Source of the DNA: Octopus sinensis
Lineage: Eukaryota
Length of the DNA stretch: 64,000 nucleotides
Reading direction: 5' to 3'
Assembly: GCF_006345805.1 (NCBI RefSeq)
Contig: NC_043012.1
Span: forward strand, 36,208,001 to 36,272,000
Positions within the stretch are counted from its first letter, which is position 1, and every line of letters starts with the position of its first letter. Below, one piece after another: positions 3,448 to 56,500 of this stretch. The translations under genes were made by a program, and so were the position numbers. The notes beneath the pieces were generated by a model, which had not been told where the DNA came from, made no database searches, and saw only the letters and a list, made by a program, of their open reading frames with translations.

Positions 3448-4057
3448 GTATTTGATTGAACACCACGCATCCATTTCCAAGTAAGTTTTATCTTAATATA
3501 TTTGATGCGACTCACTCACTCCTTCCACTGTTCTCTCTCTCTCTTCATTTCGTTTTCTCTGTCATCCTTTCTCTAATTCTTTTTACTTCCCTTCACCGTT
3601 TTCTCTCTCTCTCTCTTCCTCTTTTATTCGCTCTCGTTTCTCACACATGACCATCGTCCATCTTTCTTCTCCTCACGTGATCATTATTCTTTTCCGTCAG
3701 ACTGTAGTGCAGTCCAGACGCATTCCTATCTGTCTCCTCTCCTACCTTTTCTCTTATCAAAGAATCTCCTTCAAGCATTCGCCACTTTACCTCGTCTGAG
3801 CCTAACAACCTCCCTGTTTGTTTTCGTTTCATTTTGTTTGTTGTATGTCCTGTTTTTGTTCCCAACTTTGGCCCTCCTCAAATCCCAAATTTTATTTCGG
3901 TTCGCGGGAGCAACTGCTTTCAAAGTTTTATCTTGACGTTCAATGTTCGAAATAAGGAGTAGAAGGACAGCCGACAACTGATGAAGGGTCGCTTTTTTCT
4001 TGTTACTTGTCTTCTTTTCCTTTTCTTTCTCTCGTTCTTTGCGTACCAAGCGTTATT

Positions 4058-4156
4058 TCCGTATTTCATGTTGTTTACGTTTTGTGACGTCCTATACCCA
4101 TATATGCATACCTATATATATATACATATGTATATATGTACATGTGTGTATGTATA

Positions 4157-4254
<98 letters not shown>

Positions 4255-4340
4255 TATACATACACACATGTACATAATGTATATAGGTATGCATATATAG
4301 GTATAGGACGTCACAAAACGTAAACAACATGAAATACGGA
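4058..4340. repeat. inverted repeat (tail-to-tail repeat ends) centred on a (TA)n tract
   Basis: TCCGTATTTCATGTTGTTTACGTTTTGTGACGTCCTATACC at 4058 recurs as its reverse complement ending at 4340. Confidence 0.9.
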
Positions 4341-4446
4341 TATATATATCATCTATCTATCTATCTGTCCATCTTCCTGCCTGTTGGTCAGTTAGTCTTT
4401 CTGCTTGCCTGCCTGCCTCTCTCTTTCTCTCTGTCTGTCTATCTTA

Positions 4447-4449
<3 letters not shown>

Positions 4450-4520
<71 letters not shown>
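4450..4520. repeat. (CT)n microsatellite
   Basis: Read directly. Confidence 0.98.
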
Positions 4521-4523
<3 letters not shown>

Positions 4524-5700: not shown

Positions 5701-5785
5701 AATATATATACACATATACTCACCATGTTGGACCACTGAACTCAATATGTTTTTCCATTCTCTCTCTATTTATTTCCTTGTGTTC

Positions 5786-5821
5786 CTTTCTGTTGAAGAG
5801 CGTAGGCTCGAAACATAAAAG
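5786..5821 (+). ncRNA. variant minimal hammerhead ribozyme motif in a repeat 3' end
   Basis: CUUU-CUGUUGA-A-GAGC(GUAG)GCUC-GAA-ACAU-A-AAAG: stems I and II pair; core has A6>U relative to CUGANGA. Confidence 0.5.
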
Positions 5822-8800
5822 ACTTTCTCACTTTCCCGAGCGTCAAACTAATACACACCTGCTTGTCGTTCATACACCTGTCTTAATCTTTGTTTTTCTA
5901 TAAATCTGAACTATGTATATATATATATATATATACACACATACACATGTGTGTGTATATCTTTGTTCTCCAACACTGCTTGACAACCAGCCTTGGTGAG
6001 TTTACTTCCCTGTAACTTAGCAGTTTGGCAAAAGAGACCAATAGAATAAGTACTAGGCTTGAAAAAAAATGTCTTGGAGTCACTTCATTCAACTAAAAAT
6101 TCATCAAGGTGGTGCCCCAGCATGGCCACGGTCTAATGAATGAAACAAGTAAAAATTTTTTTTAAATAGATCGAAATTTTCTATTTCTGATTGTCAGCGA
6201 CAGTAAAACACTTGCCATATGGAAGTCCATACAACCATGGTTGCAGAGTGGCACAGTCCACCTAGTCACAAATACATACCATGTGAATATTAAGTTTACC
6301 TTGTTATGTAGGTACCATTAATAGATAAAGCTTAGCTTAAAACTATTAATATGCAGAGATATAGTCTACTTAACTGTATATAGGTACCACACTCAGACAC
6401 AATCCACCTAGTATATATATGTACCATAGTTGCATATAGGTACCACACTGTATATACAATTAGCTGTATTTACAGCATAGTCCACTTAGCTGTATATAGG
6501 TACCATACAGTAGGTACTATGCAGAGGGTACTGGCCACCTTGCTGTATACAAGTACCACACAGATACAGTATATAGGCATTATAACTGTATATAGATACA
6601 TAGGCTTAGAACAGCGGGTGCAGGGCAAGTGCACCCGCTAAACGTTTTAGTGGGAGTGGCCAATGAAAATGCTTTGAACATCCTGGGCTAGATCTGGGTT
6701 TGCACTCCCTAAACAAATTTTGTTCCCACATTTATGTAAAGGTGCCATGAGTAGGTACAGTTCGCCCTCAATATAGCAAATACTCCTCTAATTAAACTGG
6801 CCCTCTAATTAAGGACCAGAAAATGCTACAGCTCCCGACACTTATTAGCCTTATACAAGCACATATAAGGCCCACAACAGAGTACTTCCCCCAAATATGG
6901 AACAATGGTGCTACTACTACACATACAGACATCCTGAACCACAGCCAAGAAATAAGCTTCCCAACCAACTGGTATGAAGCCATTCCCCAATACCCTCCTG
7001 GTGTAGGGACTTGAATTCAGCACTGTTATATACCAAAACACTTGTTAATTACAAGATGCTCCCACTCCTTACAGCAATAAGCCAGCTGTAGGATGGAGTC
7101 ATAAGATAAATATCTATAGCAGTCTTGACTTCTTCAACCTCCTCCTCTTCATCATCAACTTCTTCTTCATCATCATCATCAGCTAAATACATTTCTCTGC
7201 ATATTCACTGTACACTACCAGGTTAGCAGGAGTACAAAGTTTTGGTATTAAGGGTTCACAGGAACAGAACAGGTATTGTAAAGTTTGAAGCTGTGTTACA
7301 ATCATACACGGTGACATCAGATGAGAGGTAAAGCCATTTCCTGAGTGCCACCTTGGCTCTGAGATACGTTGGGTTAGCAAGAGTTATGCATCTTCAATAT
7401 GATTTGACTTATAACAGTTGTATTCATTAATTAACATCTTTTACACACACACACACACCTACTCGTGTGTGCATACACATATTTATCCTCGTTTTAATGT
7501 CTGCTTTCCATGCTTGCATGGGTCAGAATTTACTGAGGCAGATTTTCTACAGCTGGATGTCCTTCCTGTTGCCAACCCTTACCTGTTTCCAGACAAGGTA
7601 ATATTTCCCCATGGTGAGACATGTTCTCGTAGATCATTAGAAATGAATGACACCGCTTGTATGACAGTGACACTCATTTACGACTAAGTCAAGTAGACCA
7701 GACATACACACACATACATACACGCATACACACACACATGCACGCATATACATACATACATGCAGCAGGCTTCTTTCTGTTTCCCCAACCAAACCCACTT
7801 TGGTCGGCCCAGCGTTTAAGTAAGAGACGCCCAATGTGCCATGCGTTAGTACTGAATCCAGAACCATGTGGCGGCTATCCATCCATACATACACACATAT
7901 ACTTTGTGTGTGTGTGTGTGTGTGTGTGTGACTGTCACTTCAATATCGTCGTTTGAAAATTTTTCTAAAAATAGAATGGTAATTAATTTTTTTTTTCTTT
8001 AAATTCTGTTCCATGAAGTTGAAAATAACATAAAAATTGACATTTAAAAAAAAAATAATAATTAAGGCACCTTTAACAAGCTAATTAATGAGGTCATTAT
8101 TGATGATGGTCTCGAATTTCAGTCGTCGTAGCTGTAGCAAGGTACCATTTCACATAAAAGCCATCACACCTCAACTATTTAATGAGCCTCAGCAGATGTC
8201 GAACCACCTTTCAGAGCGGACCACCTTGAGTGTTCACTCCAATTTTATTCATCACAAATATAAAACTTTACAATTTGTCGGCCTGCTTTTTCTAAGTGAG
8301 AAAAGTGCAGCTGCCCTCTAAGCGGTTATTAGCTATTTTCCTTGCTTCGTATGCTAAGTCTCAAAATATAGCCAACAGAGTCACAGCTGAGGCTCTCAGC
8401 AGAGTTTAGGTATTACTTGATATTATTTCATAGAAGAGAAGATGGGAACAAAACGCCAGCAGTTGCAGAAAATTGCGTAAGTAATGGAAGAAGCGATTCT
8501 AGGCAAGTCTCTCATTGAAAAGTTGTATTTGGAAAATTTAACGAAACGAAGTACATCTGGTTAAATTGCCAGATGAAGTGAAACAATCTCTTTGTTTCAC
8601 AAACAGCGTTTATTTTTATTATTAAAAAATAATAATTAAGAAATTCCTGTTTTTATTAATCAGTTTACAATATTTCTTCTTTTTTTTTTCATTTCCGTGA
8701 AACACTTGTCAAATTCTAACACCCGTTATTGTTTCTTCATTTTTCATTGAACCGGTTTATGTGATATTACAATATAAAAATTATAATAATAATGTTGAAC

Positions 8801-9945: not shown

Positions 9946-9977
<32 letters not shown>

Positions 9978-10144: not shown

Positions 10145-10186
<42 letters not shown>

Positions 10187-12272: not shown

Positions 12273-12570
12273 TATATATTAGAAGAAATGAGGTACTAAG
12301 AAGATCGGATGGTTTATATTTACAGATATTTATTTGTATATTACATTTTTTTATACATCATATAACTTAGATCATTAGCGCTTTCTCCCATTCTAGTGTG
12401 GTTTTCAAATCAAACTTCAAATGGGAGAAAGCGCTAATGATCTAAGTGATATATAAAAAATGTAATATACAAATAAATATCTGTAAATATAAACCATCCG
12501 ATTTTCTGAGTACCTCATTTCTTCTAATATATAATACCTGTACATCATCTCCAAACCTTCCAATATATAT
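12273..12570 (+). mobile_element. fold-back element with Penelope-like architecture
   Basis: About 115-bp inverted arms (12273-12392 and 12420-12533), 27-nt spacer, about 35-nt unpaired 3' tail, TA tracts on both sides. Confidence 0.7.
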
Positions 12571-12599: not shown

Positions 12600-13298
12600 T
12601 AGGGATGGGGAAAACCCCCCGCAAGCCCATTTTATTGCACCCGCAGGCTGGCATACTCGTATGTAGAAAATATAGTAAATTTTTCAATTATAAAGTTTAT
12701 ACAATCCTCATCTGCCTCTTTGCGACATAGGTCGTGTTTCCACTATGACTTAAAACGATTAGTCCCAAACAGAAAATCCTCTGGTAACTACTATTTGAAT
12801 GGAAATTTTGTTTTCACTATAAAACACATATTGCTAGGTTTGTACCACCCAACTACACTCTAGCTGAAAACTATAGAATATCTCATAGGTAATATAAATG
12901 TCCTAAATTCAGTGGTGGCGTTAATGAAGATGTTACGTGTTAATTTAATTTTTATTAATGTATATCAAATTATCAGCCTCGTCTGGCACCTGTGTCGGTG
13001 GCACATAAAATCACCCACTACACTCTCGGAGTGGTTGGCGTTAGGAAGGGCATCCAGCTGTAGAAACACTGCCAGATCTGACTGGCCTGGTGCAGCCTTC
13101 GAGCTTGCCAGACCCCAGTTGAACCGTCCAACCCATGCTAGCATGGAAAGCGGACGTTAAACGACGATGATGATATATATACAAGATTTACATAAATACG
13201 AGTTAGAACTTGTGATCCACCTGTGGACCCTTTTTTTTTTGTTTTTTTGTTTTGTTGTAACTTTTGCCTCCCACACTAAAAAGTTTCCCCCACCCCTG
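12600..13298. mobile_element. non-autonomous hAT-type element
   Basis: TIRs TAGGGATGGGGAAAAC / GTTTCCCCCACCCCTG; perfect 8-bp TSD GGTTAAGG (12592-12599, 13299-13306). Confidence 0.85.
12975..13173 (+). mobile_element. RTE-LINE-associated 3' end repeat nested in the hAT element
   Basis: GAGTGGTTGGCGTTAGGAAGGGCATCCAGCTGTAGAAAC...GGACGTTAAACGACGATGATGAT, same family as 34950-35585. Confidence 0.85.
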
Positions 13299-15139: not shown

Positions 15140-15980
15140 CAAGGCTGTATCAAAAAGTCCCCAAGACTAGTTCTGTTGCACACCAACAGGTGGCAGCGTA
15201 TGGTTGCATGCACAGTGAGAGCTAGCAGTGTTTACTTTGCAAGTTGTGAAAGTTATGTTTTTGTGATCACATGTATGCTGCAGTCTGCGATTTTGTCATG
15301 GAGGGGAACAAAGAGCCAATGTGAAATTTTGTGTGAAACTTGAGAAGTCTGCTAAAGAGACATTGAGCATGCTTACAGCAACAAGGCAATGGGTCATGTG
15401 CGACATTTCAAGTGGCACAGATGCCTCAAAAGCAGAACATCCTAGGAGACCTGCCATGAGCATCACCCCCAGAAATGTGTTATTGTGCATTGAGAATTGG
15501 TCCCCCTGGGCCAGACCATCAATCAAGGGTTCTACTGATGTTTTGAAACATTTGATGGAGGACATTCAGCGAAAGCGCCCGGATCTATGGAGGGCAAAGA
15601 ATTGGATTCTTCATGAAGACAACGCACCCTGTCACCAAGTCACCAAGTTTCTCCCCCAAAACAACATGGTATCACTTCCACACCCACCCTATTCGCCAGA
15701 TTCAGCACCTGCAGACTTCCACCTCTTTTCGAAGATGAAAATGCAGTTCAAAGGTCACCGTTTTAACACTGTTGGGAAGATCCAGGGCAAATTGCAGAAG
15801 GTCCTTGACTTGCTTACGGAAAATGACTTCCCAGACTGGATTCCAAAAGGGGCAGGAACACTGCGACCAATGTATTGGTGTGCAAGGGGACTATTTTGAA
15901 GGAGATGATGTTAAAACTTGGGTAAATAAGTTATTTCTTATTCAACATAACCTGTCTGGGAACCTTCTGATACCATCTCA
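15140..15980 (+). mobile_element. internally deleted mariner (DD34D) element with pseudogenised transposase
   Basis: TA-flanked imperfect TIRs (CAAGGCTGTATCAAAAAGTCCC / GGGAACCTTCTGATACCATCTCA); ORF 15321-15899 has WILHEDNAPCH and HPPYSPDSAPADFHLF but no recognisable first catalytic-D region. Confidence 0.9.
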
Positions 15981-16142: not shown

Positions 16143-16145
<3 letters not shown>

Positions 16146-16432
16146 AAATTTAGAGGACTGACCACTAAAAGTGGACAGCCTGTATGCTAGATATAGACGC
16201 CAAAATCACCATGTATTCTCAAGACAAAATTCAGCAAAAAAACTGCTGAATTTTGTCTTGAAAACACATTCTTTGTGGAAAATGGTGATTTTGGCGTCTA
16301 TATCTAGCATACAGGCTGTCCACTTTTAATAGTCAGTCCTCTAAATTTTGTATGTAAAAAATTTTTAATTTTCGGATTTTTTAAAATGGTTTTAATTGAT
16401 TAATATCAATTTCTACCCTTATTTAATTTTAT
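16143..16432 (+). mobile_element. fold-back element with 3' tail (copy 1)
   Basis: ACAAAATTTAGAGGACTGACCACTAAAAGTGGACAGCCTGTATGCTAGATATAGA... is inverted to 16351, followed by an unpaired tail of about 80 nt into TA. Confidence 0.8.
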
Positions 16433-16477
16433 ATATTATTAATATATATATATATATATATATATTAATAATAATAA

Positions 16478-16806
16478 TATGACAACAAAAGAATGAATGA
16501 GACCTCGATATTATGTAAAATAGAGGAATTTATCTATAAATATGTGACAATTAGTTGGTTGTCATAATAAAACTGTTTCAGATACCGGGGCTGAAGTCTG
16601 CTCTTATGTATATTATGTGTGCATATGCAGATTCTATGAATGAAGTCTTTCACCATGCCTATTGGAGTAATTTCCCTTTATTCAATGGGGTTTGTGTTTT
16701 TTCATAGCATTTTGTCTTAATAACTGATAAGATGCCGGTGCAGACTTCAGCCCCGGCATCCAAAACTCTGAGTTTTATTATGACAACCAACTAATTGTCA
16801 CATATT
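16478..16806. mobile_element. fold-back element carrying a decayed hammerhead
   Basis: Arms 16539-16601 and 16740-16806, tail on the left; hammerhead layout at 16719-16779. Confidence 0.7.
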
Positions 16807-16823
16807 ATATATGTGTATATATA

Positions 16824-17092
16824 TACAAAATTTAGAGAACTGACCACTAAAAGTGGACAGCCTGTATGTTAGATATAAATGTCAAAATTGCCATTTTCCA
16901 TGAAGAAAAATTTTTTCAAAATGGCGATTTTGACATCTATATCTAGCATACAGGCTGTCCACTTTTAGTGGTCAGTCCTCTAAATTTTGTAAGTAAAAAA
17001 ATTTTTAATCTTCGGATTTTTTCTTTTCAAATATGCTAGGCCACTGGTATTAATTGATTAATATCAATTTCTACCCTTATTTAATTTTATAT
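16824..17092 (+). mobile_element. fold-back element with 3' tail (copy 2 of the 16143 family)
   Basis: Same arm start and same tail (…TAATTGATTAATATCAATTTCTACCCTTATTTAATTTT) as copy 1, with a different turnaround point. Confidence 0.8.
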
Positions 17093-17864: not shown

Positions 17865-18104
17865 TTATTTACATTATTTACATTTGACGGATATTTCTCC
17901 TCATCTTGTTTGTTGTTAACACAACATTTCGGCTGATATACCCTCCAGTCTTCATCAGGTGTCTTGGGGAAATTTCGAACCTGAGTTCTCATTCCTAAGG
18001 TATCTTTCAATGTTATTGTTATTATTATTCAGGTCATTGCCTGGAATCGAACTCGGATTCTTGGGGTTAGTAGCCCGCACTCTTAACCACTACACCATAT
18101 GCCC
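17865..18104 (-). mobile_element. tRNA-headed SINE carrying a hammerhead ribozyme
   Basis: Minus strand: GGGCATATGGTGTAGTGGTTAAGAGTGCGGGCTACTAACCCCAAGAATCCGAGTTCGATTCCAGGC (A and B boxes), (AAT)n linker, then GACAC-CTGATGA-A-GACTG..CAGCC-GAAATGTT-GTGTT at 17963-17918. Second copy at 56245-56500. Confidence 0.85.
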
Positions 18105-19750
18105 GTGGGCATATATAAATGACTGCTTATGTATGTGTATATATGTGTATGTACTTATTTGTATGTGTGTATATATTTGTATGTGTGCATATCTATGTAT
18201 ATATATGCATCTATTTATGTGTGTGTGTATACATGTACACGTGTATGTATATATACAAGTATATGTGCATTTGTGTATATGTATCCGTGTGTGTATATTG
18301 TTCAGTTTATATATGTGTGTATATATATTTTTGTGCATCTATGAATGTAAATAATGTAAATAATTCCTCATCTCTTAAATATAGAACTACAAAGGTTTGG
18401 AACTAACATTGAGAAGCATTCTACCTTATCCTGTTACAACTTGTGTATGTTTAGCTTATATACAGATGTATGAGAGTAGATGTATATACGTGTGTGTGTA
18501 TATATATATATATATAAAAATGGCTGTATGTGTGTATATATGTCTATGTATATATTTGTATGTGTCTATGTGAATGTATATTGTGTGTATATGTGTATAT
18601 ATATATTTGTGTGCATATCTGTGTATATATGCATCTATTTATGTGTGTGTGTGTATACATGTACATGTGTTTATATGTACACAAGTATGTGCATTTGTGT
18701 ATGTGTATCTATATGTGTATATTGTTCAGTTTATATATGTGTGTATGTATATTTTTGTATGTCTGTGCATGTATGAATATGTACTTTTTTGTTTGTTTGT
18801 TTGTATGTATGTGTGTATATTTGTGTCTTTATGTTTGTGCATGTGTGTGTGTGTATATTTGTGAGAATATATATGTGTATGCATGTATTTGTATATCTAT
18901 ATTTGTGTGTGTGTGTGTGTGTGTGTTAGATTGTGTTTCTGAGCAAGTCATTTCATTTCTCGTTATTGCAGTCGTCTCACCTGTCAATACGCACCAGCCA
19001 GTTGCTGGTGCATCTCTCCCCTTTCATCTGTCACCTTCTGAATGTGGGGTTGCTTGAAATATGAGGGACCTGAAAGAGCTTTTGTCTCTGCTCACAACTA
19101 CTTAGGGACCTAAAGCAATTAGTGTATCAGTGGTGCATGTTACCATGCCATATGAGCAATACAGTTGACACAACTTTTTCTATTTATAACAATGTTATGT
19201 ACATATTATCATCATCATCATCATCATCATTTAACGTCCGTTGTCCATGCTGACAGGGGTTGGACGGTTTGACCAGAGCTGGCAAGCAAGAGAGCCACAC
19301 CAGACCCCAGTCTGATTTGGCAAGGTTTCTACAGCTGGGTGCCCTTCCAAGCACCAACCACTTTACAGAGTGTGCTGGGTACTTTTGCATGGCACTGCAA
19401 GGGTGCTTTTATGTCGTGCCACACAGGCACTTTTACGTGGCACCATATGGGTGCTTTTACATGACACTGCCTCAAGTACTTAACACCACCAGAAGGATTG
19501 GTCTTAACACTTTTGCTGTGGACTTTGGGTCTTCTTGAGTACGGCAAGATGCTAAGCATCTTGGTCCTTTATTAGGTCTTCGTACGTACAGCATCTCAGT
19601 CCTTGTACATACATACATATATATATAGCCGAAATTGCGAGGATGATCTGGTTCTTGACTGAAGATTGAAGGCTTCGAATGTCCTGTCCGTGTTTTTTGT
19701 ATCGTCTTCTAAATGTTTTGCGTTCTTGTCCCAGTTTGTATTTTTTTTAC

Positions 19751-21702: not shown

Positions 21703-22943
21703 TTGGGGGTCATCCCATAAATAATGCGGTTTTTTTCAATTGCATGAACTAAAAGTCAGATTGAAATGGGATAAAGTACCTGCATCAATTTGCTATAAAA
21801 GCAGGTAGTAATTTTACCTTGTACTTATTCTTAGTGCAAGTTTTGAAGAGTGCAGTTTGATTTTAACAGTTATTGTTTCAAAGCTGTAATGGAAGTGACA
21901 AAGGAGCATATTCGGCATATTTTGCTTTCTGAGTTCAATAAAGGCTACAAAGTAATGGAAAGTACGAGGAATATTTATGCAGTATATGGGGATCAGACAA
22001 TAGGCTTAAGCCAGTGTCAATGGTGGTTCCAGAAATTACAGTCTAGAAGACAAACTTTGTCCTGAAAGATCTGTAGAACTCAACGAGGACGTACTGCAAA
22101 CCCTGGTGGAACAAAATCCCCATTGTAGCTGTTGAGGAACTAGCAGAGAAGCTTGGATTTGGTCACTCAACCATTCATCAACACCTGCATGTCATTGGAA
22201 TTGTCAGCAAGTTGGGTCAGTGGGTTTCTCACAAACTTTCCAAGTCTAACTGAATGCAGAGAGTGAATGTGTACTCTTACGAATGAACCTTTTTTGGACC
22301 GAATAGTAACTGGTGACGAGAAATGGGTTCTCTATAAAAATGTCAAGCACCAAAGACAGTGGGTGGGGAAAGGAGAAACACTGGCACCCCAGGCTAAAGA
22401 AGGTTCTTCACCCACGTAAAGTGTTGTTATCTGTTTGGTGGGATATGAAAGGGCTAGTCCACTTAGAACTTTTAAACCCAAACCAAACAATAACAAAGGA
22501 GATCTACTGCGAGCAGCTTGAGTGGCTTAAGTCAGCGCTAGAAGAAAACCAACCATCTTTGGTTTCAAGACAAAAGGTGTTCTTCAATCAGGATAATGCT
22601 CGACCACATACAACGGAGATGACATTTCAAAAGCTGAAGCAGTTTGAATGGGAAACGATGCCCCACCCACCATATTCACCAGACATTGCGCCATCTGATT
22701 ATCATTTACTCTGCAGTTTTCCAAATCATTTGGATGGAAAAAAATATGAATTCTGTAGATGAAGTCAGAACAGTACTGGAGGAGTATTTTTCATCACAGA
22801 CAAGTAAATTTTGGAAGAGGTGCTTTGCAAGTCTACCAGATAGATGGAAGAGCATTGTAGAAAATGAAGGAGAGTATATTTTAGATTAAAGAAGAACCTT
22901 ATCTTAATTTTGAAAACTAAAAGAAGTATATAAAACTGCATTA
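21703..22943 (+). mobile_element. near full-length mariner (DD34D) with frameshifted transposase (ATG 21889 to stop 22889)
   Basis: MEVTKEHIRHILL..., WVSHKL, IVTGDEKWVLYKN, QDNARPH, HPPYSPDIAPSDYHL, W..IVENEGEYILD*; left TIR TTGGGGGTCATCCCATAAATAATGCGGTTTT after TA, right TIR eroded to AAAACTGCATTA. Confidence 0.95.
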
Positions 22944-33417: not shown

Positions 33418-33875
33418 TAACATCATCATCATCATCATCGTTTAACGTCCGTTTTCCATGCTAGCATGGGTTGGACGATTTTGACTGAAGGCTGGCGAAC
33501 CAGATGGCTGCACCAGGCTCCAATCTTGATCTGGCAGAGTTTCTACAGCTTGATGCCCTTCCTAATGCCAACCACTCCGACAGTGTAGTGGGTGCTTTTT
33601 ACATGCCACCAGCACAGGTGCCAGTAAGGCGACATTGGTAACGATCACGCTCGAATGGTGCCCTTTTACATGCCACTGGCATAGAAGCCAGTTGGCTATT
33701 CTGGCAATGATCATGCTCGGATGGTGCTCTTGGCACCCTACTAGCACGGGCACAAGTGCCAGTAAGCGACGCTTGTAACGATCACACTCAAATGGTGCCT
33801 TTTATGTTCCACTGGCACGGAAGCCGGTTAGCCGCTCTGTCAACAATCACGCTCGTATGGTGCTCTTTGCACCGT
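33418..33875 (-). mobile_element. RTE-associated 3' repeat with tandem units
   Basis: (CAT)n tail, CTACAGCTTGATGCCCTTCCTAATGCCAACCACTCC and repeated ACGATCACGCTCGAATGGTGC units. Other family members at about 19205-19470(-), 23848-24085(-), 39490-39685(+), 43890-44075(+), 52205-52480(-), 55195-55442(+), 60515-60670(-), 63335-63560(-). Confidence 0.9.
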
Positions 33876-34949: not shown

Positions 34950-35585
34950 CTTTGGCCTCAAAGAGGCAATGACAAAAGACCGAGAGCTCTGGAGGTATGC
35001 TGTGACTGAGAAGACCTGGCAAATAAAGTGAGTTCACAGCTGTAACCTACACCAGTGTCACATAACCAGCCAACTCAAAAGTACCTTGGATTGTAGGGCG
35101 ACATGCCATGCTTGAGGAAACCTATTGAGTCAAGTACATCAACATCAGGAATATCAAAATCAAATCAAATGGAAATTGTAGTTGTGAACCCCATGCTGGG
35201 AGCACGTAAATCATGGTTGATGCCAGCTCCTCTGGCCCCTCTGTATTGCTTGCAGAAAGTGTTGGTTGGGGGGTAGGCTGATGAGGGAAGGAGGGGGGAT
35301 TTGTTCTACACCCAGCAACAGCATGTGGTTGACAATACCATAAGTCAGTAATACTTGGGTACACAATCATGGTTGATGCCAGCTCCTCTGGCCCCTCTAC
35401 CGGTGGCACATAAAAAGCATCCACTACACTCTGAGTGGTTGGTGCTAGGAAGGGCATCCAGCTGTAGAAACACTGTCAGATCAGATTGGGGTCTAGTGCA
35501 GCCTCCTGCCTTCCCAGACCCCAGTCGAACTGTCCAACCCATGCTGCCATGGAAAGTGGACGTTAAACAATGATGATGATGATGA
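34950..35585 (+). mobile_element. RTE LINE 3' end (last codons, 3' UTR, GAT tail)
   Basis: GLKEAMTKDRELWRYAVTEKTWQIK* is an RTE-type C-terminus and is followed by the abundant AGGAAGGGCATCCAGCTGTAG repeat, linking that repeat family to an RTE. Confidence 0.8.
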
Positions 35586-42934: not shown

Positions 42935-43413
42935 TTAAACACAATGACCACATATATATATATATATATATATAGTTTGCATTCTTGAGCAGGGCATTTC
43001 ATTCCATGTTGCTCCAGTCTGCTCGGCTGAAAATGAGTACCACCCTTGCACTGGGGCAACATTTCTCATTCCTGCTGCCACACTCCTCTATGGTCTGCTG
43101 GGTCAAAAGGTGACTGGTTGGAGAAAGTGCCTGTTCATTCAAATCTAAACAGCGAAAACAATTTGTGAAAGCATGCTACAGGTATCATACAGGTATCATA
43201 CAGGTATCGTTCTCATTTGCATGTAACAGCTGTTTTATGCACATACACGTGTGTGTGTGTGTGTGATTATTTATTTGCATATTTATTTTTAACATGTCTA
43301 CACAGTTTTGGATGAAAAAATATACTGGTTGAAATACCAGTTTCTCATATCTTGCTGTACGCAGTGCCAATGTGTGTGTGTGTGTAAGAAATTAGAATGA
43401 TGAAGGAATAAAC

Positions 43414-43690
43414 AATTATGTTATGAATTTCATTGGCTTACAGCTGTTTCGGCTACACATACAATGTACTCCTAGTTGAATGCTTGTATATCACCCTATA
43501 GCTTCATCAGAGCTCCACTGAAGCTATAGGGTAATACACAAGGATTCGACTATGAGTGCATCACATCTGGTAGCAGAAACAGCTGTAAGCCAATGAAGTT
43601 CACAACATAATTTCTTATTATACTGCTCTGTACTCGACTGACACTTCATTCTGAAGCCTATGTTTATTGATATCTAACATCAGGTTATAA
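43414..43690. mobile_element. fold-back element with hammerhead (43436-43513, minus)
   Basis: About 95-bp arms 43414-43612 with a right-hand tail; minus strand GCT-CTGATGA-AGCTA...TAGCC-GAA-ACAGCTGT-A-AGC. Confidence 0.75.
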
Positions 43691-44190
43691 GTTTCACTGT
43701 GCTTAAGCAAAATATTAAAATATACAGACATATTTTGGTTGAGTCACTCTCTTGCTACTCTGAAGTTTTACCTCTGCATTCACAGTCATCAGGTGAGTCA
43801 TGCATCATGCTAGATGACCTATAAACTCAATGGTATTGAGTGCTCTTTCTCCCTGACAGTCAACACTACATATATATATACACACACACATCGTGCTGGT
43901 GGCATGTAAAAGCACCCACTACACTCTTGGAGTGGTTGGTGTTAGGAAGGGCATCCAGTGGTAGAAACTCTGCCAGATCAGATTGGAGCTTGGTGCAGCC
44001 ATCTGGTTCGCCAGTCCTCAGTCAAATCGTCCAACCCATACTAGCATGGAAAGCGGACGTTAAACAATGATGATGCATACATACATACATAAAATATATA
44101 TTTTATCCCAAGACGGTGACAAATTCAAAAGGAGCTGTGGTTGGCCACTTAGAATAATGTACTGGAAGATAAGGTTGAAGGCGAAAATGA

Positions 44191-44260
44191 AATATCTAAT
44201 CCATGATTGTTAGTCCAACAAAATATATTTTGTCAGACTAACAATTATGGTTTTAGATAG
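44191..44260. repeat. short imperfect palindrome
   Basis: ATCTAATCCATGATTGTTAGTCCAACAAAATA / TATTTTGTCAGACTAACAATTATGGTTTTAGAT. Confidence 0.75.
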
Positions 44261-46826
44261 ATAGATGTAACACACATTAATGTACACTCACTCTACTACT
44301 GGTTTCAGCCACTGGGCTGTGACCTTGCTGACAGCTGTCAGAATGTTTTTCATAGCCTTTTGTATGTTATGAGGAAGTTTAATGTCACTGCTTTTGTCTG
44401 TGTATCCACACTGCAGTGTAGATTCACCCAGGATTATACACAATTGAGTGCCTACATTTAAATTTGAAATGCTATGTATATATATCCCTTATAACTTGAA
44501 GCATTGTGTGTGTTTGTGTTAGAATTTGTCATTCATTAAGGTAATATGTTAGTGTCTCCTTGTCTTTTGCATGATTATTGTAAATGAATGTCAATCATTT
44601 CCAGTATTCTGCAAAAACATGTCTGGCCACGGGGAAATATTGCCTAGCTTGGAAACAGGTGAAGGTTGGCGACAGGAAAGGCATCCAGCTGTAGAAAATC
44701 TGCCTCAATAAACTCCATCCAGCTCAGATAAGCATGGAAAAGTAGATGTTAGATGTTAGAACGACAATGATGACAATAAAGTATGTCAGTGGCTAACATG
44801 TCCAAAGGCTGAAGAAAATGCTTATCTGTTTTGTATATGGTCAATGGAGAAAGGGACATTTGGACGGCCATCTTTGTCATGAACACAGCTTTGTTATATA
44901 GATAGGGAATGGGGGAAAAGCCAAGAAAATACTCTTTTTCATGTATATTTTAGAAATAACCATATAAGTAATTCTGGTTAATGAGTCAAAGCACTTTCAG
45001 CTGGTTCCCACTTACCCATCCTTTCACCTCCTCAACTAATCTCATTAAATGGTATCACCTTCTCATTAAATGGTATTACCTTCATATTTGGACTGATTCT
45101 GTTGTTGAACAACATTACATTGTCACTGGATAATATCAACATATTTCTTCATAGAAGTATTTTGTTATTGTCTATAACTAGAGTGTTGCCCATCATATTG
45201 GTAGATAATGCTGGGAATATACGTCTACCTCTGGGTCGTATCAGGTAATTACTGGAAATATAATAATTATTATTTTACTTTCTGTTAAGTTTGATGAGGA
45301 ATGACTACTAATTTTTGAAATATATTTGTTAAAATGAATAAAGTAAATTTTTCATTTGTGTACTTGTAATAGATATATGTTATTAATAACAATAATAATG
45401 TTTAACTATCAATTCACAACACGTGAAACATCACTTGATCTTTCCTACATTGGCAAAAGCATGTTCCTAACATTACCTTGTCATATGATAGGTAGCACTC
45501 TACTCAGTGTATAGTAAGTAACCAAGGGAAATAAACCCAATAGCATAAAGAGTTGTCTCCCATTTGGAGACAGCCAAACAGAGACAAAGGGAAATGAATC
45601 CAATATCAGAGTTAACTCTCTTTGAGAGACGGCTAAACAGAGACAGAGACACACTGTCAGTTTTATTAAGAGCTAGGTTTTAACTGTTTATAAAACCCAA
45701 ATATGCCTTGTGTTTTATCACACAAAGAAAGTAAAAGAAAAATCCTGACTGAAATTTAACAACAAAGTCTGGTCCATGTCAAACTTTGTCCTCTCTTAAT
45801 TCTTCTCTTCTGCTACAGCTTCTGTTTTTCTCAAGTTACTGACTGAATACTTCCTCCACCGTTACAAACCCAATGAAACAAACGTGTACCTCAGTCCTTC
45901 TTCTTTATTATAACCATGTCTCTCTGCTTGTGTTCCCATTCTGCCCATGCTCACCCACCAACCACTAATGTACAAACTTCAAACTGAAAACCTACTACCT
46001 TTAACTATTCCTGCACTTCATGTCTTTTAGTCGAGAAGGGGCTGAAAATACTGCAGGTATTATAGTCCCCGCTAAAACAAGATACTGTTGACAGTATTGT
46101 TTATGTTTTGCAAGGAATATCTGCTTCATCTAGAAAGCCTAACTTACCATTCTAACTGATCCTATTTTAATATTAACATATTGGTAAACTGATGCAATCA
46201 GATGCCCACTTAACTACTCTAATGAATGTCCTGCACCTACTGACCTTTAACTCTGCCAATGAAATGGAACTAGATCCTATTGTCCTGCCAGATAGAGGCT
46301 GAGATGGTTCTGGAAGAAATAGTGTTAAGAAGACAAGCCATCCAGGAGAGAGTGGACACATAAGATGAAGAGGCTGTCGACTCTGGAAGTACAAACATTC
46401 TCAGATGTTGGTCACTGAACTGTCTGTCCACACACCCCTATAGTTCTTGGTGAACTTGGTGACTCTTGGCTGTCTTTTACAAATTCAACCGGGTTATCGT
46501 TGCAACGAAGAAGTGACCACCACACCAGCTGAAGAGAGACTTTAAAAAAAAATTGCTACAGAGTAAGTTTTCTGGACCAAGGTTACTTCCTAATTTCTAT
46601 TGGTGAAAGAGAGAGAGCGAGAGAGAGATGCCAACACTAGCCTTCCTGATCCACAATCCATAAAAACCAATGGTTGTTAAACCATTGATGATGTTGATAA
46701 TATTGTTAACACTATTATCACGTCTTCATTGCTGTTTAGATTGTGAATATCGATTATTTGTACATGTCTAACAAAACATGTCTGCATTGCTTTCTTCTAA
46801 ATTAACTTGTCAATATTCTCTTTCAG

Positions 46827-47101
46827 AACCCAGTGGACCAGCAGATATCACACTTATATGATATTGCCCAGTAGACAGAAAGATATCGCTATATAGAAGG
46901 CATTCTTCTAAAAATAATGGACCACCAGTCTGTTCTCAACCAACGACTATGAAAGTTATTCTCTGCAATCTATTTCTCCATACGGTTCCAGTGTATTAAA
47001 AGACTCGCCTCTCCTCTTCACACTAGTTCTCTGAAATAGTTAGAGTTTATGTTGGCATTTCACTGCTACCACTATTGTTGTAGTAGTCAGTCATTTGAAA
47101 T
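46827..47101 (+). other. probable 5'-UTR portion of the first coding exon
   Basis: Acceptor ATATTCTCTTTCAG| at 46826; all three frames closed; in-frame TGA at 47096 precedes ATG 47102. Confidence 0.5.
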
Positions 47102-48030
47102 ATGATTTCTTTTGATAAAACCCCGGTCTCCTCAGAAACCTGCCATTCTGTTATGCAATCGTACCCTAATCAGTCATCTAATATTCCAGAAACAGCTATG
47201 TACTCCCCTTCATTTGCACTGCCTAATGACATGGGGTCTCGTTTACAGTATACCAAGCCTGCTGCCACTTTACCAAACAATTCTATACAAGAACAGGCCC
47301 CTTACTTATATTCAAGTTTTCAACAACAGACTACAATTCAATATCCAACCACTAATAACTCGCTAGTTGATAATAGCAATCTTGCTGTGCTACACCAACC
47401 AACGAGATCAGAACTACCAGTTTCAAATAACAATCTGATAAATGTATATTCAAATAGTGTTTCTCAGTCATTTTATAACCAGACATTACAGAGTGAAGAA
47501 AGTGTTAATCTAATGCGTGCTAGGCCTTCAGATGGATTATTAAAAGAGTCACCTCCCAAAGACCGGATTTATGAACACATATCCCATGCACATTCTATTT
47601 CCAAATCCCACAAAAAGATAACAGAACTCAGTGATGAAGATTTGTCTTCAAGATTCCCATCTAGCCCTCTGATAAGTTCCAAAATTAAGCCCTCATCATT
47701 AACTTTATACTCTAGTATTTGCAAGTCGTTGTCGTCGTCATCGTCATCATCTGTTGAAAACAAGAAGAGAAGGCGTTCGCGCTCACGTTCTTCTTCACCG
47801 TCTTACTCACGATCAAAGTCTCCTAGTTCCTACTCGAGATCCAGATCGTCATCTAGAAGAAAGTCTTCGAGAAGATCTCGATCTAAAAGCCCTTATTCAA
47901 AAGGCAGAGGTCACTCGGACAAACCCCGATACAGCTCTAGGTTGAATGAGAATGACAAGTCATCCAAGAGATCATCGCGATCGAGGAGTCGAGAGAAGGA
48001 CTACCATAGGGAGACATCCCAAGGTGATAA
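47102..48030 (+). CDS. SON: SON-like protein, coding exon 1 (S/Q/N-rich N-terminus and RS-rich tract)
   Basis: 310-aa ORF with KKRRRSRSRSSSPSYSRSKS...; donor AA|GTAAGT (phase 2) matches the next exon. The start codon is less certain than the exon end. Confidence 0.88.
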
Positions 48031-50431: not shown

Positions 50432-50860
50432 TTTACATGGAATACAAACTAGAGATATAAAATTAAAACAAAAGGAGTTACAGAATAGTTTTGACAGTTG
50501 TTTCAAACAAACCCTGGCTTATGCCGTAACCACATTCATTACATCACAAGGACCCATAATGTGATGGGTGTGCGGACTAGTACAAGTGCCTAGGATCTGT
50601 TAGGTAAGGCTAGGTCACTTCATCTGAAGAATGTGACAAAAGGGCTTGCTTAACAGATCAATAAGAACTTGTGTTATTCCATAGACCAACAACACCGTGT
50701 GTCTTTATTATGTAATGGACACGGTTATGGCATAAGCCATGGTTTGTGTGAAACAGCTGTCAAGACCAGACTATTGCATAACTCCTTTTGTTTATTTTGT
50801 ATTCCATGTAAACATTAAGCTTCCTTGTGTTTATCTGCCTTACAGATAAATATTATATAT
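50432..50860. mobile_element. intronic fold-back element with decayed hammerhead end
   Basis: TTTACATGGAATACAAA...GGCTTATGCC is inverted to 50812; GAAACAGCTGTCAAGAC at 50750; unpaired tail into TA. Confidence 0.7.
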
Positions 50861-50888
50861 CTGCCTGTGTATAATATGCACACACACT

Positions 50889-50931
<43 letters not shown>

Positions 50932-51103
50932 TATTTGTGATTTAATGAGGCTACCAAAGATGTCATGTAAAGAGGAATATCTTAACAATTATCAAGCAGG
51001 CTTGATAATTATTAAGAGGTTACTCTTTATATGAAACCATTGGTAGCCTTTTTAATCCACCAATGCATTGTTGAGCACTCATTTTTCACTGTTTGATCTT
51101 AGT

Positions 51104-51143
<40 letters not shown>

Positions 51144-52140: not shown

Positions 52141-52580
52141 TCTCATTCATACATACAGTGTATGTGTATGCATATGTGTGTATATATGAGCACTTGTTTG
52201 TGTATCATCATCATCGTCGTCATCATCATTATCGTTTAACGTCTACTTTCTATGCTGGCATGGGTTGGACGGTTTGACTGAGGGCTGGCAAGCCAGAAGG
52301 TTGTACCAGGCTCCAATCCGATCTGCTTAGCAGCATTTCACCTGTTTTCTACTGCTGGATGCCCTTCCTAATGCCAACTACTCCGAGGGTGTAGTGGGTG
52401 CTTTTTTATGTACCACCGACATGAGGGCCAGTCGGGTGGCATTGGCAGCAACCACGCTTGAATGGTGCTTTTTACATGCCATGTATGTGTGTGTGTGTGC
52501 GTAATTAACAGAGAGTTGTGTTTAACGACATTGTTATAGTTTTGTGTTGACCTTTTGTTGATCTTCTGTTCTGTTTGCAG

Positions 52581-52666
52581 TGAGAAACTGATCAAATCTG
52601 GAACTGCAGCCAAAGAAGATATTGCATCATTGCGAGCTGGTGGGAAAACTGTTGAAGAGTTAATAA
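52581..52666 (+). CDS. SON: SON-like coding exon 3
   Basis: TTTGCAG| ... |GTAAGT, 86 nt, phase 2/1; EKLIKSGTAAKEDIASLRAGGKTVEELI (SON-type GGKSIEEL). Confidence 0.93.
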
Positions 52667-54372
52667 GTAAGTACACAGGGGTGGTTTTATCGGGTGGAAC
52701 TTTCTACCCTGTTATTCAATTAGTTTAATAATTGTATAAATTCCGTTGTATATCCAGTACTAAGGTGAAGATGCTGTGGTGTTTATCCTTGTCTCTTTGA
52801 TAATTCCATTCTAAAGATCCTGATGATCTAGGGCATCTCAGTGGGAGCTATTTTTGCTTGTATATTGACAGCAGTGGTCATTTTGGATTGTCTGAATGAT
52901 GTCTTTTAGGAAATGCTTCAGAGGATTACAGACAATCTGGTCCCTTTCCCCTTGAACCTATCTTTTTGAGAGATTTAAGATCGTTCAAAGGACAAACCAC
53001 ACTGACCTTCCCTTAGTGGTCGGCTCAACATGTTGTCAGAGTCTGAGAGTTTGGGAAGGACCAGCTCTTACGAAGGGCTTGACCCTTTAGCATTCGATTT
53101 ACTTTGATTAATTTAACACAATGCAAATCAGTAAGCATTACATTTGACAAAGTAATCATCATCATCATCGTCATTGTCATCATCATCGTTTTTATCGTCA
53201 TTGTCATCATCATCGTCATTGTCATCATCGTCATCATCATCGTCATTGTCATCATCGTCATCGGACGTTAAACACTGATGATTATTTTGTCAATGTAATG
53301 CTTATTACTCTCTTTACTCTTTTACTTGTTTCAGTCATTTGGCTGCGGCCATGCTGGAGCACCGCCTTTTAGTCGAGCAAATCAACCCCAGGACTTATTC
53401 TTTGTAAGCCCAGTATTTATTCTATCGGTCTCTTATGCCGAACTGCTAAGTTACGGGGAACGTAAACACACCAGCATTGGTTGTCAAGCAATGGGGTGGG
53501 GGACAAACACAGACACACACATATGATGAGCTTCTTTCAGTTTTCCTCTACCAAATCCACACACAAGGCTTTGGTCAGCCCGAGGCCGTGTGAGAGTGTG
53601 GATCTGGCCAGTTTGAACCTAAAACCAGTAGGATATTTGGGTCCTGATTTGGCTGGTTTAAATGCTGAAGAGATAATAATATAAGGGCCTGAAATGAAGT
53701 GAGACTTAGTGGAAGGGAGAGGATTGTGAGTGCCGTGTGTATGGCAGTTTATTTCACCATATTTCTGTTTAAGTATGCTGTTATTTCCAAAATGAATTGA
53801 AACCAAAGTAAAGAATTTAGTAAAGTAACTTGGGAAATTCAAATCACTTAAAAGAACAGGATTTTTATATTTTAGAATCAGGAATGGTTTTTAAATAAGT
53901 TGGCATCAAAACAGTTAAACCAAGCAATTAAGAACTTATTTAAAAGCTGTGTATAAGACACATATTGGCATCTTTATTTAGCACTATTAGAATTTGGTTG
54001 TGCTTGGTTCCAAATTCCTACCCCAAAACAGAATTGTGATAATTCTAGCTGCAAACTGTGTCTATCTTAGTTTGATCTGTCTGTGATAAATTGTGTAATA
54101 ATATTTTGCTTTTAAGGGCCAATGGGCTGGTGGAATCCTTAGTCCACTGGTCAAAGTTCTGAGCAGCATTTCACATTCTGAGTTCAAATTCTGCTGAAGA
54201 GGTCCTCTTTGCCTTTCATCAATTCAGGCTCAATAAAATAAGTACCAGTTGAGCACTGGGGGTCAATGTAGTCAACTTAACCCTTCCCCTGAACTTGCTG
54301 GCCTTGTGCCAAAATTTGAAACCAATTATTTTGCTTTTATTTCTGATCTTGTTGTTGTTGTTGCTGTAACAG

Positions 54373-54539
54373 ATTATTGTAAACAGATATCACAAAAGGA
54401 ACACGAGTCCAGTTCTGATAATTCTTTGTATGATTCAAAGAAACCTGAAGAAGAAATTGAAATCACAAACCATCCTTTCAAACGACCAGAGAATAATTGT
54501 ATAGTCCAGGCTGTTAGAAGTGCTATTTTAAATATGAAG
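54373..54539 (+). CDS. SON: SON-like coding exon 4
   Basis: TAACAG| ... |GTAGGT, 167 nt, phase 1/0; YCKQISQKE...NHPFK (SON 'CKQIAQ...HHPFK'). Confidence 0.93.
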
Positions 54540-55700
54540 GTAGGTCTGTCTCACCAGCTGTTCTTTATTTAAATCATCGATGTTTCATACTTTATGGCCA
54601 GCAACATGCTGTCCTCACAATCTAAATGAAATACAGGTGGGAATTATTCCTTAATTCCTTTGCCAAGAAGAGGACATCTGGCTGTAAAATGCTGTCCTGT
54701 ATAACTTCACTTCATACGCATGCTAACATGGAAGATTGAACTTTTAACAAACAAGTGTGTTTATATAGACACACAGACACGCATGCACACACATGCCCCT
54801 TTAAAGTGGTTGGCAATAAGAAAAGCATTTGGCCATAGAAACCAATTCAAAAATGTAATTCATGAGTGAGATGTGGTCCTCTATCCTGTCTAGATAAACA
54901 GCAGCCTCAGACAACATCCAGGACAGCCTGTCCAACCCATTGTATCGAGGAAAATGAACGTAAAGTGGGATGGCTACATGATGTGTATGTGTGTGTGTAT
55001 AGTTTGATTAAATCCAAGTTTTGTGCATGTGTAGTACACATCCCTCATCACATCAGATGTTGCTCTTAGCATCTGATGAGACGGATATGTCCTACCCACC
55101 TACAAAACTTGTGGAACCGTGCCAAATTTAGAGAATATATTTAACTCCTAGCAAATGTGTTGAGTGCCACTTTCTCTTGTTTGTTCACTCTCCCATGCCA
55201 GTGGCACATAAAAAGCACCATCGAAGTGTGGTCAGTGCCAGTACCACCTGACTGACCCTCATGCCGCTGGCACGTAAAAAGCATCCGCTACACTCTCGGA
55301 GTGGTTGGTGTTAGGAAGGGCATCCAGCTGTAGAAACTTCGCCAGATTGGATTGGAGACTGGTGCAGCCTTCTGGCTTGCCAGTCCTCAGTCAAACCGTC
55401 CAACCCATGCTAGCATGGAAAGCAGACGTTAAACGATGATATGTGCACACACACACACAAACCCCCATTAATCTCAACAGTTAACGATTCAGTCCCATGC
55501 TACAAGGCAAGTGGGTAGCCTAGACATAACTTTGTTTCAATTCTTGGTTAAACCCAAGTCACTGCTTCTGTATCTCTAATGAACTTGGGAAAGGCATCAA
55601 CATCACATATTCCCCCCTCTCTTCCTCTTTCATAAATACATACAATAAACCATCCTTTTCCCTCCAATTTTAATGTTTTTCTTTTTGTTGTTGTTTTCAG

Positions 55701-55946
55701 AATAACAAACACCACCAACTGCCCTCCCCTCAAGATATGGTGAAAGATTCACCCTTAAGGCTTCAATTCCCGGTGTCCAGTGGCAGCCAACATCGTGCTA
55801 AAGAACTTCAGTCAACCACAGGTCAATTAGGCTTTCAGAAAAACTCTACAGCTCACTCTGTGTATGCTCCAGGAAGGAATGGTAAACTCGATTCCTTGGA
55901 TACAAACTCAAATTCAGACCAAGTATTTCCTGAAGACTGCCAACAG
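55701..55946 (+). CDS. SON: SON-like coding exon 5
   Basis: TTTTCAG| ... |GTAACA, 246 nt, phase 0/0; LRLQFPVSSGSQHRAKE matches the SON signature EFPVSSGSQHRKKE. Confidence 0.95.
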
Positions 55947-56244
55947 GTAACAAGTTTCAACCATCTGTAATTCTTTTGTTCACCTGTCCCTCACTCCTTT
56001 CCTCAAGAGTCTGTGATATTGTATACCTTAAGCAAATCTTTCCATTCCCTTTCCATAGTCTGTGATTTATAATAAAATCTTGATGCTTCTTCTATCTGCA
56101 ACAACTAATGCAAACAGGTGTAACAGTGGAATGTAGTTTCTATTTATTCCACTGTTTGTTTTTTTTTGTTGTTTTTCGACTGATATATATATATATATAT
56201 ACACATACACCCCTATGTTGTTGTTGTTGTTGTTATTATTATCA

Positions 56245-56500
56245 TTATTATTATTCAGGTCACTGCCTGGAATTGAACCGAGTTTGATTCCAGGCAGTGA
56301 CCTGAATAATAATAAGAAGAAGAATAACATTGAAAAATACCTTAGGAATGAAAACCCAGGTTTGAAATTTCCCCAAGACACCTGATGAAGGCTGGAGGGT
56401 ATATCAGCCGAAACGTTGTGTTAACAACAAACAAGATGAGGACAGATATATGTCAATTGTAAATAATGTAAATAATTCCTCATCACTTAAATATAGAAGT
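56245..56500 (+). mobile_element. tRNA-hammerhead SINE copy with 5' inversion
   Basis: Body matches the reverse complement of 17865-18055 and adds the tail TTCCTCATCACTTAAATATAGAA; 56245-56278 is an inverted copy of 56282-56315. Confidence 0.85.
56377..56422 (+). ncRNA. minimal type I hammerhead ribozyme (intact core)
   Basis: GACAC-CUGAUGA-A-GGCUG(10 nt)CAGCC-GAA-ACGU-U|GUGUU: stem I 5 bp, stem II 5 bp, palindromic stem III as in Penelope-type minimal hammerheads. Confidence 0.75.

What the first reader, a model, noticed from the sequence alone, without database searches (positions are those of the whole stretch)
3860..56500. Window-wide pattern: many unrelated hammerhead or fold-back families with no autonomous element
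Seen: about ten asymmetric fold-backs or inversions (4058, 12273, 16143, 16478, 16824, 17865, 43414, 50432, 55035, 56245) and six hammerhead-like motif types with different stems but palindromic or near-palindromic stem III (5786, 16719, 17918/56377, 43436, 50701-50766, 55074), many abutting TA/TG tracts. No Penelope RT or GIY-YIG ORF is visible here. Inference: a diverse, probably under-annotated Penelope-like ribozyme retroelement system that seeds dsRNA hairpins in introns.
Basis: partly seen in the sequence, partly recalled or inferred. Interest (0 to 1): 0.7.

Follow-up and report, generated by a model that had tools for sequence, protein, structure and literature searches.

The report
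Penelope retroelement stubs, one tRNA-headed
The fold-backs are decayed end-pieces of at least nine repeat families that carry the known insertion footprint of Penelope-type jumping genes; this is mostly ordinary, but one family is the end of a protein-coding element whose repeat starts with a tRNA-like head that likely acts as an RNA polymerase III promoter.

Summary
The fold-backs are real (folding z -6 to -31). They belong to nine repeat families, eight of them common in this 2.7-Gb genome. Copies show the published footprint of Penelope-like elements (PLEs): variable 5' truncation, an inverted upstream arm, a tail on one arm, TA/CA tracts at the ends. Only 2 window copies still pass a hammerhead descriptor. 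The motif is established family by family: five families keep the full core with unrelated stems; others carry fixed variants.

'No autonomous element' holds only for the window. Two families (12273; 17918/56377) are ends of RT/GIY-YIG-coding PLEs elsewhere; two (4058; 16143/16824) are 550-735-nt non-coding tandem units. The MITE rival fails. dsRNA editing is untested.

The notable part is family 17918/56377. A tRNA-like head follows its ORF; 37 of 45 copies that reach the head's first bases stop there; its coding strand lacks shared T4 runs. Pol III transcription is likely but unproven. The scan noted this tRNA-headed PLE before on other DNA of this genome; I retested it here. I found no paper describing it.

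The parts
3288..4135 (+). Family G: partial tandem of a ~735-nt non-coding unit; hammerhead-like core at 3978, family lacks the GAA of the core
   Evidence: Direct repeat 3288-3357/4023-4092; 2078 candidates; core columns in 13 of 13 copies; unit structure, longest frame 119 aa
4277..4344 (-). Family G inverted piece, tail-to-tail across a TA tract
5750..5895 (+). Family C single stub; minimal hammerhead fold at 5790 with a family-wide A6-to-U change; positions 7 and 17 vary
   Evidence: 22 matches outside the window in 340 fetched loci, 2 of them re-fetched places; columns in 19 of 19 copies
12273..12568 (.). Family H fold-back: 3' end of a GIY-YIG-coding PLE; left arm short, right arm with ~35-nt tail; possible U3-A8 hammerhead core at 12408-12402 on minus, stem I only 2 bp
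   Evidence: Found 1.15-1.67 kb downstream of the GIY-YIG domain in 9 of 40 PLE loci; sequences; columns
16143..16430 (.). Family I fold-back, cut off downstream of the family's hammerhead; one arm has a ~95-nt tail
   Evidence: ~550-nt tandem non-coding unit
16478..16812 (.). Family D fold-back; decayed hammerhead core at 16724; left arm carries the long tail
   Evidence: 2162 candidates; full core in 14 of 14 copies
16824..17030 (.). Second family I fold-back, with a different centre
17865..18112 (-). Family B stub: tRNA-like head (18112-18026), AAT/AAC linker, hammerhead core at 17958 with stem III decayed, short 3' end
18346..18386 (+). Inverted tail piece of family B upstream of the 17865 stub
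43385..43725 (.). Family A fold-back; hammerhead with complete core at 43510 on minus, 8-nt palindromic stem III; plus arm has a ~100-nt longer tail
   Evidence: 939 candidates
44193..44259 (.). Small fold-back, family not assigned
   Evidence: no other copy in 340 loci
46827..48030 (+). Host exon (Ser/Arg-rich frame), AG before and GT after; neighbouring fold-backs are probably intronic
   Evidence: One contig in each of 4 runs covers 46825-48030; boundaries
50432..50835 (.). Family E fold-back; decayed hammerhead, core at 50624, long stem II, palindromic stem III near 50753
   Evidence: 117 candidates; columns in 10 of 13 copies
50933..51064 (.). Fold-back between CA tracts, family not assigned
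   Evidence: no other copy in 340 loci
55015..55111 (.). Family F: old low-copy fold-back; core at 55073, GAAA decayed and cut off
   Evidence: 3 candidates; relative L343 keeps the core, a palindromic stem III and a fold-back, stem II unclear
56240..56500 (+). Family B stub with partial head, linker, intact minimal hammerhead at 56382 and long tail; inverted arm covers only the head end and linker

Best explanation
These fold-backs are 5'-truncated, decayed copies of several repeat families with the PLE insertion footprint, likely pasted in by the reverse transcriptase and GIY-YIG endonuclease of protein-coding Penelope-like elements. Inferred mechanism: the enzyme nicks both strands of AT-rich or microsatellite DNA and primes a cDNA on each end, starting at one of two internal sites downstream of the hammerhead. 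The two short cDNAs join head to head, giving an inverted pair with a tail on one arm. Shown: families H and B are ends of coding PLEs; families G and I are non-coding tandem units, presumably moved in trans. Coding partners of A, C, D, E, F were not found. Most hammerheads are probably passengers of the terminal repeat, with no role at these sites. In family B the repeat begins with a tRNA-derived head that likely gives a Pol III start, which would explain why most copies begin there and behave like SINEs.
For: Footprint: inverted upstream arm in 49 of 78 B loci. One long and one short arm in 18 of 21 scorable B fold-backs, p=0.0007 against 50%, and in 22 of 26 I fold-backs, a set partly selected on the tail. 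Junctions vary in position while outer ends are fixed. Either arm may reach further 5' (13 vs 9), which fits two independent cDNAs and not simple snap-back. Linkage: H in 9 of 40 GIY-YIG loci. B head in 29 of 30 and hammerhead part in 27 of 30 loci found by the ORF end; that ORF resembles PLE proteins. Hammerheads: A, B, D, E, I keep CUGANGA and GAAA with unrelated pairing stems and palindromic stem III. Pol III: B box in 26 of 30 and strict A box in 11 of 30 heads. 5' ends stop at 0.089 per nt in head positions -7..+11 against 0.006 and 0.005 on either side. T4 runs: none in 4 of 8 long B copies, one private run in the other 4; 6-8 in equal lengths of two other PLE families; 1.0-7.9 per kb in 11 control ORF clusters. 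Both-strand nicking, two internal RT starts and cleavage being dispensable in vitro are from PMC11167929.
Against: No activity, expression or cleavage was measured. No excess junction microhomology over blunt-join simulations, so the joining step is unsupported. Five families have no coding partner in my sample. The head is not called by ARAGORN at default (0 of 14 loci) or by Rfam, and relaxed ARAGORN calls are mostly misfolds (12 in 30 heads against 22 in 300 shuffles). The T4 deficit is one lineage: P about 0.02 against base shuffles but 0.14 against a dinucleotide model, with no head-less Poseidon-type control. A short palindrome at the head's start could also stop the RT. Genome searches scored only the best 40 candidates each.
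Confidence: 0.88

Rival explanations
1. Family B stubs are an independent tRNA-derived SINE that borrowed a PLE 3' end and is moved in trans.
For: Most copies start at the head and carry no ORF: only 8 of 61 copies with a head extend well upstream. This was my reading.
Against: The same head, linker and hammerhead follow the stop codon of the coding element in 27-29 of 30 ORF-end loci, so the head is part of the coding element's repeat. Stubs may still copy themselves.
Confidence: 0.2
2. The pile-up of 5' ends at the family B head comes from a hairpin or palindrome that stops the RT, and the element is transcribed by Pol II; the head is a captured tRNA fragment without promoter role.
For: A near-palindrome sits at head positions 0-11 and many fold-backs centre on it. 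The A box is strict in only 11 of 30.
Against: The pile-up also holds in copies without an inverted arm (12 of 14 that reach +11, counted). The stem is only 5 bp. The body and repeat lack shared T4 runs.
Confidence: 0.3
3. The fold-backs are MITEs or other DNA-transposon derivatives with TA targets.
For: Family I has long inverted arms between TA tracts and no hammerhead in the window copies; mariner-type remnants lie in the window.
Against: Ends are asymmetric and centres variable. Longer I copies extend into a hammerhead and form a ~550-nt head-to-tail unit. H and B sit behind GIY-YIG ORFs. It stays open only for 44193 and 50933.
Confidence: 0.04
4. The hairpins are kept because they supply intronic dsRNA for A-to-I editing or regulation of the host gene.
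For: They fold stably and four flank a plus-strand exon.
Against: Arms are decayed (83% arm-to-arm identity at 43414) and follow from the insertion mechanism alone. No editing data were obtained.
Confidence: 0.1

Closest known systems
Minimal hammerheads of metazoan PLEs (Cervera and de la Pena 2014, PMC4209133; parts 1-2 of 4 read)
   Same: Many heterogeneous families per genome, mostly single motifs from truncated PLEs; opposite-strand pairs 100-700 bp apart; an unpaired base before stem II; palindromic stem III; U3-A8 variant; 2-bp stem I in D. virilis.
   Different: Family-wide A6-to-U (C) and loss of GAA (G) were not in the parts read; no tRNA-like head in a coding PLE.
Insertion units of EN+ PLEs: Penelope/Poseidon, Neptune, Nematis, Naiad (Craig et al. 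2021, PMC8557442; abstract and 12 passages seen)
   Same: 5' truncation, partial tandems, inverted 5'-truncated copy, tail on one end, microsatellite bias, non-autonomous derivatives.
   Different: Tails of about 70-120 nt in A, D and I against 30-40 bp described; Naiads lack hammerheads and have an N-terminal endonuclease.
PAc, Poseidon of Anolis (Frangieh et al. 2024, PMC11167929; parts 1-2 of 4 read)
   Same: Two 3' ends downstream of the hammerhead, AT-rich targets, C-terminal GIY-YIG. The clade label Poseidon-type for family B rests on recalled motif likeness, not on a tree.
   Different: No tRNA-like head reported; promoter assumed in the pLTR.
Non-LTR retrozymes (PMC7229834, passages seen; bioRxiv 10.64898/2026.07.22.740005, part 1 of 5 read)
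   Same: Non-coding tandem units with one type I hammerhead, proposed to derive from PLEs: fits I and G.
   Different: Units here are 550-735 nt against about 170-400 nt, mostly truncated fold-backs; G has lost part of the core; circular RNA untested.
Schistosome SM-alpha/Sj-alpha SINE-like elements (review PMC6765202, passages seen)
   Same: Pol III promoter followed by a hammerhead.
   Different: Those are described as non-coding repeats; here the head lies inside the repeat of a coding PLE, directly after the ORF.

Membership tests
EN+ Penelope-like elements | Linked ORF with RT and GIY-YIG endonuclease | tested here: met
   B. H. A 781-aa RT+GIY-YIG frame in the genome. Met for these two families only.
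EN+ Penelope-like elements | Linked ORF for families A, C, D, E, F | tested here: inconclusive
   No link in 40 GIY-YIG loci or in 1.0-1.5-kb flanks of A, D, E loci; one hit each beside A and D loci looked like separate insertions.
EN+ Penelope-like elements | Variable 5' truncation, inverted upstream copy, tail on one end | tested here: met
   B, I, A quantitatively; D, H, G by inspection.
EN+ Penelope-like elements | Clade by RT phylogeny | not tested
   Poseidon-type and Neptune-type labels are recalled likenesses.
Minimal type I hammerhead | Core CUGANGA and GAAA, stems I and II, palindromic stem III, NUH site | tested here: met
   Families A, B, D, E, I; in the window only 56382 and 43510 pass a descriptor.
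Minimal type I hammerhead | Complete core in families C and G | tested here: not met
   C has U at position 6 in all 19 copies; G lacks GAA in 13 copies. H is a U3-A8 variant with a 2-bp stem I; F has an unclear stem II.
Minimal type I hammerhead | Self-cleavage as dimer | not testable with these tools
   Needs an in vitro assay.
Non-LTR retrozyme | Non-coding head-to-tail unit with one hammerhead | tested here: met
   I: ~550-nt unit, longest frame 85 aa. G: unit shown but core incomplete.
Non-LTR retrozyme | Circular RNA intermediate | not testable with these tools
   Only contigs were available.
tRNA-derived SINE | Internal A and B boxes in a tRNA-like head | tested here: inconclusive
   B box 26 of 30, strict A box 11 of 30; no Rfam or default ARAGORN call.
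tRNA-derived SINE | Exists apart from a coding element | tested here: not met
   The head is part of the coding PLE's repeat.
MITE / TIR DNA transposon | Fixed symmetrical terminal inverted repeats | tested here: not met

The most novel reading that the evidence does not exclude
Family B is a protein-coding Penelope-like retrotransposon transcribed end to end by RNA polymerase III from a tRNA-derived internal promoter in its terminal repeat. Its ORF is purged of Pol III terminators, and the same promoter in a lone repeat produces thousands of SINE-like ribozyme stubs: a coding retroelement that is its own SINE source.
Probability: 0.4. Interest if true: 0.78.

Novelty: new variant of a known kind. 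Interest (0 to 1): 0.48.

Why it matters
The window-wide pattern is a dense example of published PLE biology; it matters mainly for annotation, since such stubs can be misfiled as MITEs or SINEs (inference). The paired long/short arms give genome-scale support for two-ended priming, a step left open in the in vitro work. If family B is a Pol III-transcribed coding retroelement, it would show a direct route from an autonomous element to a SINE and raise the question of how an uncapped transcript is translated. It is testable with existing types of 5'-end data.

Tried and rejected
Rfam scan of the window: only low-score miRNA-like matches to microsatellites among those shown. Classical hammerhead descriptor: 0 hits, too strict for palindromic stem III. 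Relaxed descriptor: at chance level. Independent-SINE reading of family B: dropped. MITE reading of family I: dropped. A speculative U3-A8 core inside the family I arms: dropped once the real motif was found upstream. Simple snap-back of one cDNA: disfavoured, since the short arm reaches further 5' in 13 of 22. Junction microhomology: no excess, fraction with 3 or more bases 0.29 observed against 0.29 null in I (34 junctions, several of them TA artefacts) and 0.29 against 0.28 in A. For one search I dropped 8 family I rows (L172, L173, L182, L183, L193, L194, L197, L198) whose second arm was TA-only or too short to score. The head-selected sample is biased at the 5' end, so 5' ends were counted on samples selected by the 3' part; 17 of those 78 had no head match and are not in the hazard count. 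One search covered the wrong side of L209 and was reused as such a sample. RNA: no RNA holder on record was listed; contigs did not cover this locus's own fold-backs and cannot show editing. Pfam on 14 window frames gave nothing useful; the host gene is unnamed. Lunse et al. on hammerhead variants was not held. Repbase and Dfam were not available; no supplements were read, and the library behind PMC13282606 may already contain these families.
Full report
Setting. The window lies on contig C16 of G000, 2.72 Gb.

Observation. Local inversions exist at nearly all listed places, plus 44193 and 50933. All 11 regions folded are far more stable than shuffles, z -6.0 to -30.7. 17865 is a single copy with only a small inverted tail piece 230 nt away, and 4058 is tail-to-tail across a TA tract. 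Window-level hammerhead scans are weak: 0 with a classical descriptor; 1 with a minimal-type descriptor against 0.017 in shuffles; 3 with a relaxed one against 0.85, maximum 3. Rfam showed none among the best 150 of 225 matches. The case therefore rests on genomic copies.

Families. First-look candidate counts, of which 40 at most were scored: A (43414) 939; B (17918/56377) 1178 and, by its head, 2698; D (16719) 2162; I (16143, 16824) 1559 and 947; E (50701) 117; G (3978/4058) 2078; F (55074) 3. C (5786) was not searched but gave 22 matches in 340 fetched loci, 2 of them re-fetched places. H (12273) turned up behind PLE ORFs. Column counts show the full core, paired stems and palindromic stem III in A (39 of 39 copies aligned), B (78 of 78), D (14 of 14), E (10 of 13) and I (6 of 6), each with different stem sequences. 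C has U at position 6 in all 19 copies while positions 7 and 17 vary. G lacks GAA. H has a U3-A8 core with a 2-bp stem I. Cervera and de la Pena describe this kind of diversity, opposite-strand pairs and the U3-A8 variant (PMC4209133, parts 1-2 of 4).

Footprint. In B, 49 of 78 loci selected by the 3' part have an inverted upstream arm. One arm is long and one short in 18 of 21 scorable fold-backs of the first sample (p=0.0007) and in 21 of 24 of the second, which was selected for long arms. In I it is 22 of 26 after dropping 8 artefact or unscorable rows. In A, 17 of 40 loci scored an adjacent inverted arm. Centres vary and outer ends are fixed. This is the published PLE insertion unit (PMC8557442, passages), and the two 3' ends match the two internal RT starts of PAc (PMC11167929, parts 1-2 of 4). 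Either arm can reach further 5' (13 against 9). One cDNA folding back on itself could not give an inverted arm with the longer tail, so two cDNAs primed from both nicked strands is the better inference. Microhomology at the joins was not in excess.

Coding partners. No PLE protein matches the window. The genome holds 5029 GIY-YIG candidates, 147 matches among 150 scored, several in open frames of 762-883 aa; one carries RT and GIY-YIG. H lies 1.15-1.67 kb downstream of the GIY-YIG domain, same strand, in 9 of 40 loci, all of one protein family. For B, 5 of 30 head copies shared upstream sequence that reads as an endonuclease end. Searching with it gave the head in 29 of 30 loci and the hammerhead part in 27 of 30. 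The protein matches the PLE RT/thumb region, and copies share up to 1.85 kb upstream. I was led to this test by earlier notes. I is a ~550-nt head-to-tail non-coding unit and G a ~735-nt one; both resemble non-LTR retrozymes (PMC7229834, passages; bioRxiv 10.64898/2026.07.22.740005, part 1 of 5). Partners for A, C, D, E, F were not found.

The tRNA-like head of B. It shows a B box in 26 of 30 copies and a strict A box in 11 of 30; its arm-like layout is my reading of the sequence. ARAGORN at default and Rfam do not call it, and relaxed calls are mostly misfolds. Among 61 of 78 loci with a head match, 5' ends stop at 0.089 per nt in positions -7..+11 (37 events), against 0.006 downstream (16) and 0.005 upstream (5). 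Pol III stops at runs of four or more T (established knowledge). Eight long B copies of 1.2-1.85 kb have 0, 0, 0, 0, 1, 1, 1, 1 such runs, the single ones all at different places; five equal-length stretches from two other PLE families have 6-8. Eleven control ORF clusters have 1.0-7.9 per kb. This is one lineage, P about 0.02 against base shuffles and 0.14 against a dinucleotide model, and no head-less element of the same clade was at hand. It is suggestive only. A palindrome at the head's start is a live alternative for the pile-up.

Host context. Contigs from 4 runs, RNA by guess, cover 46825-48030, bounded by AG and GT, so a plus-strand gene crosses the region and nearby fold-backs are probably intronic. 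Editing was not testable.

Literature. Searches. None listed a paper on a coding PLE with a tRNA-derived promoter, or on twin priming in PLEs; most hits were seen as listings only. The nearest precedent is the schistosome Pol III plus hammerhead repeats (PMC6765202, passages). A giant squid genome paper counts 235 hammerheads (PMC6962438, passages). An octopus repeat annotation lists 31 recently active Penelope-like families and 893 unclassified SINE families (PMC13282606, parts 1-2 of 3); its library and all supplements were not seen.

Verdict. The pattern is real and of a known kind: PLE end-pieces and non-coding PLE-type units. The variant worth follow-up is the tRNA-headed coding PLE, noted before by this scan on other DNA and retested here. 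Interest 0.48.

Noticed in passing
L026 upstream of 1501; L029 downstream of 1642: Ends of a restriction-like-endonuclease LINE (Dong/R4-like, label recalled) sit in or beside the AAT linker of family B copies.
   Followed up: no
window 15267-15899 and 22310-22762: Mariner-type transposase remnants: DDE_3 weak and Transposase_1 E 1e-19.
   Followed up: partly
window 35246-35366 and 37259-37380: 96% identical inverted pair 1.9 kb apart, with a 34-nt exact direct repeat at 35209-35242 and 35365-35398; looks like a local rearrangement. No other copy in 340 loci.
   Followed up: partly
   Followed up: partly
L168, about 1.2 kb downstream of the GIY-YIG domain: The 781-aa PLE family appears to carry a U3-A8 hammerhead variant near its 3' end (seen by eye).
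   Followed up: no
window 3978 (family G) and 5790 (family C): Two abundant families amplified with fixed changes in the catalytic core, in line with cleavage being dispensable for transposition.
   Followed up: partly
window 12974-13174, 23853-24081, 27145-27574, 33428-33876, 43891-44093, 55190-55461 and others: A very abundant dispersed repeat in both orientations; it dominates depth in the RNA-like contigs at 43861-44174 and could form far more long-range dsRNA than the fold-backs.
   Followed up: no
window 16143-17030: Three fold-backs of two families (I, D, I) are packed end to end, joined by TA tracts.
   Followed up: partly
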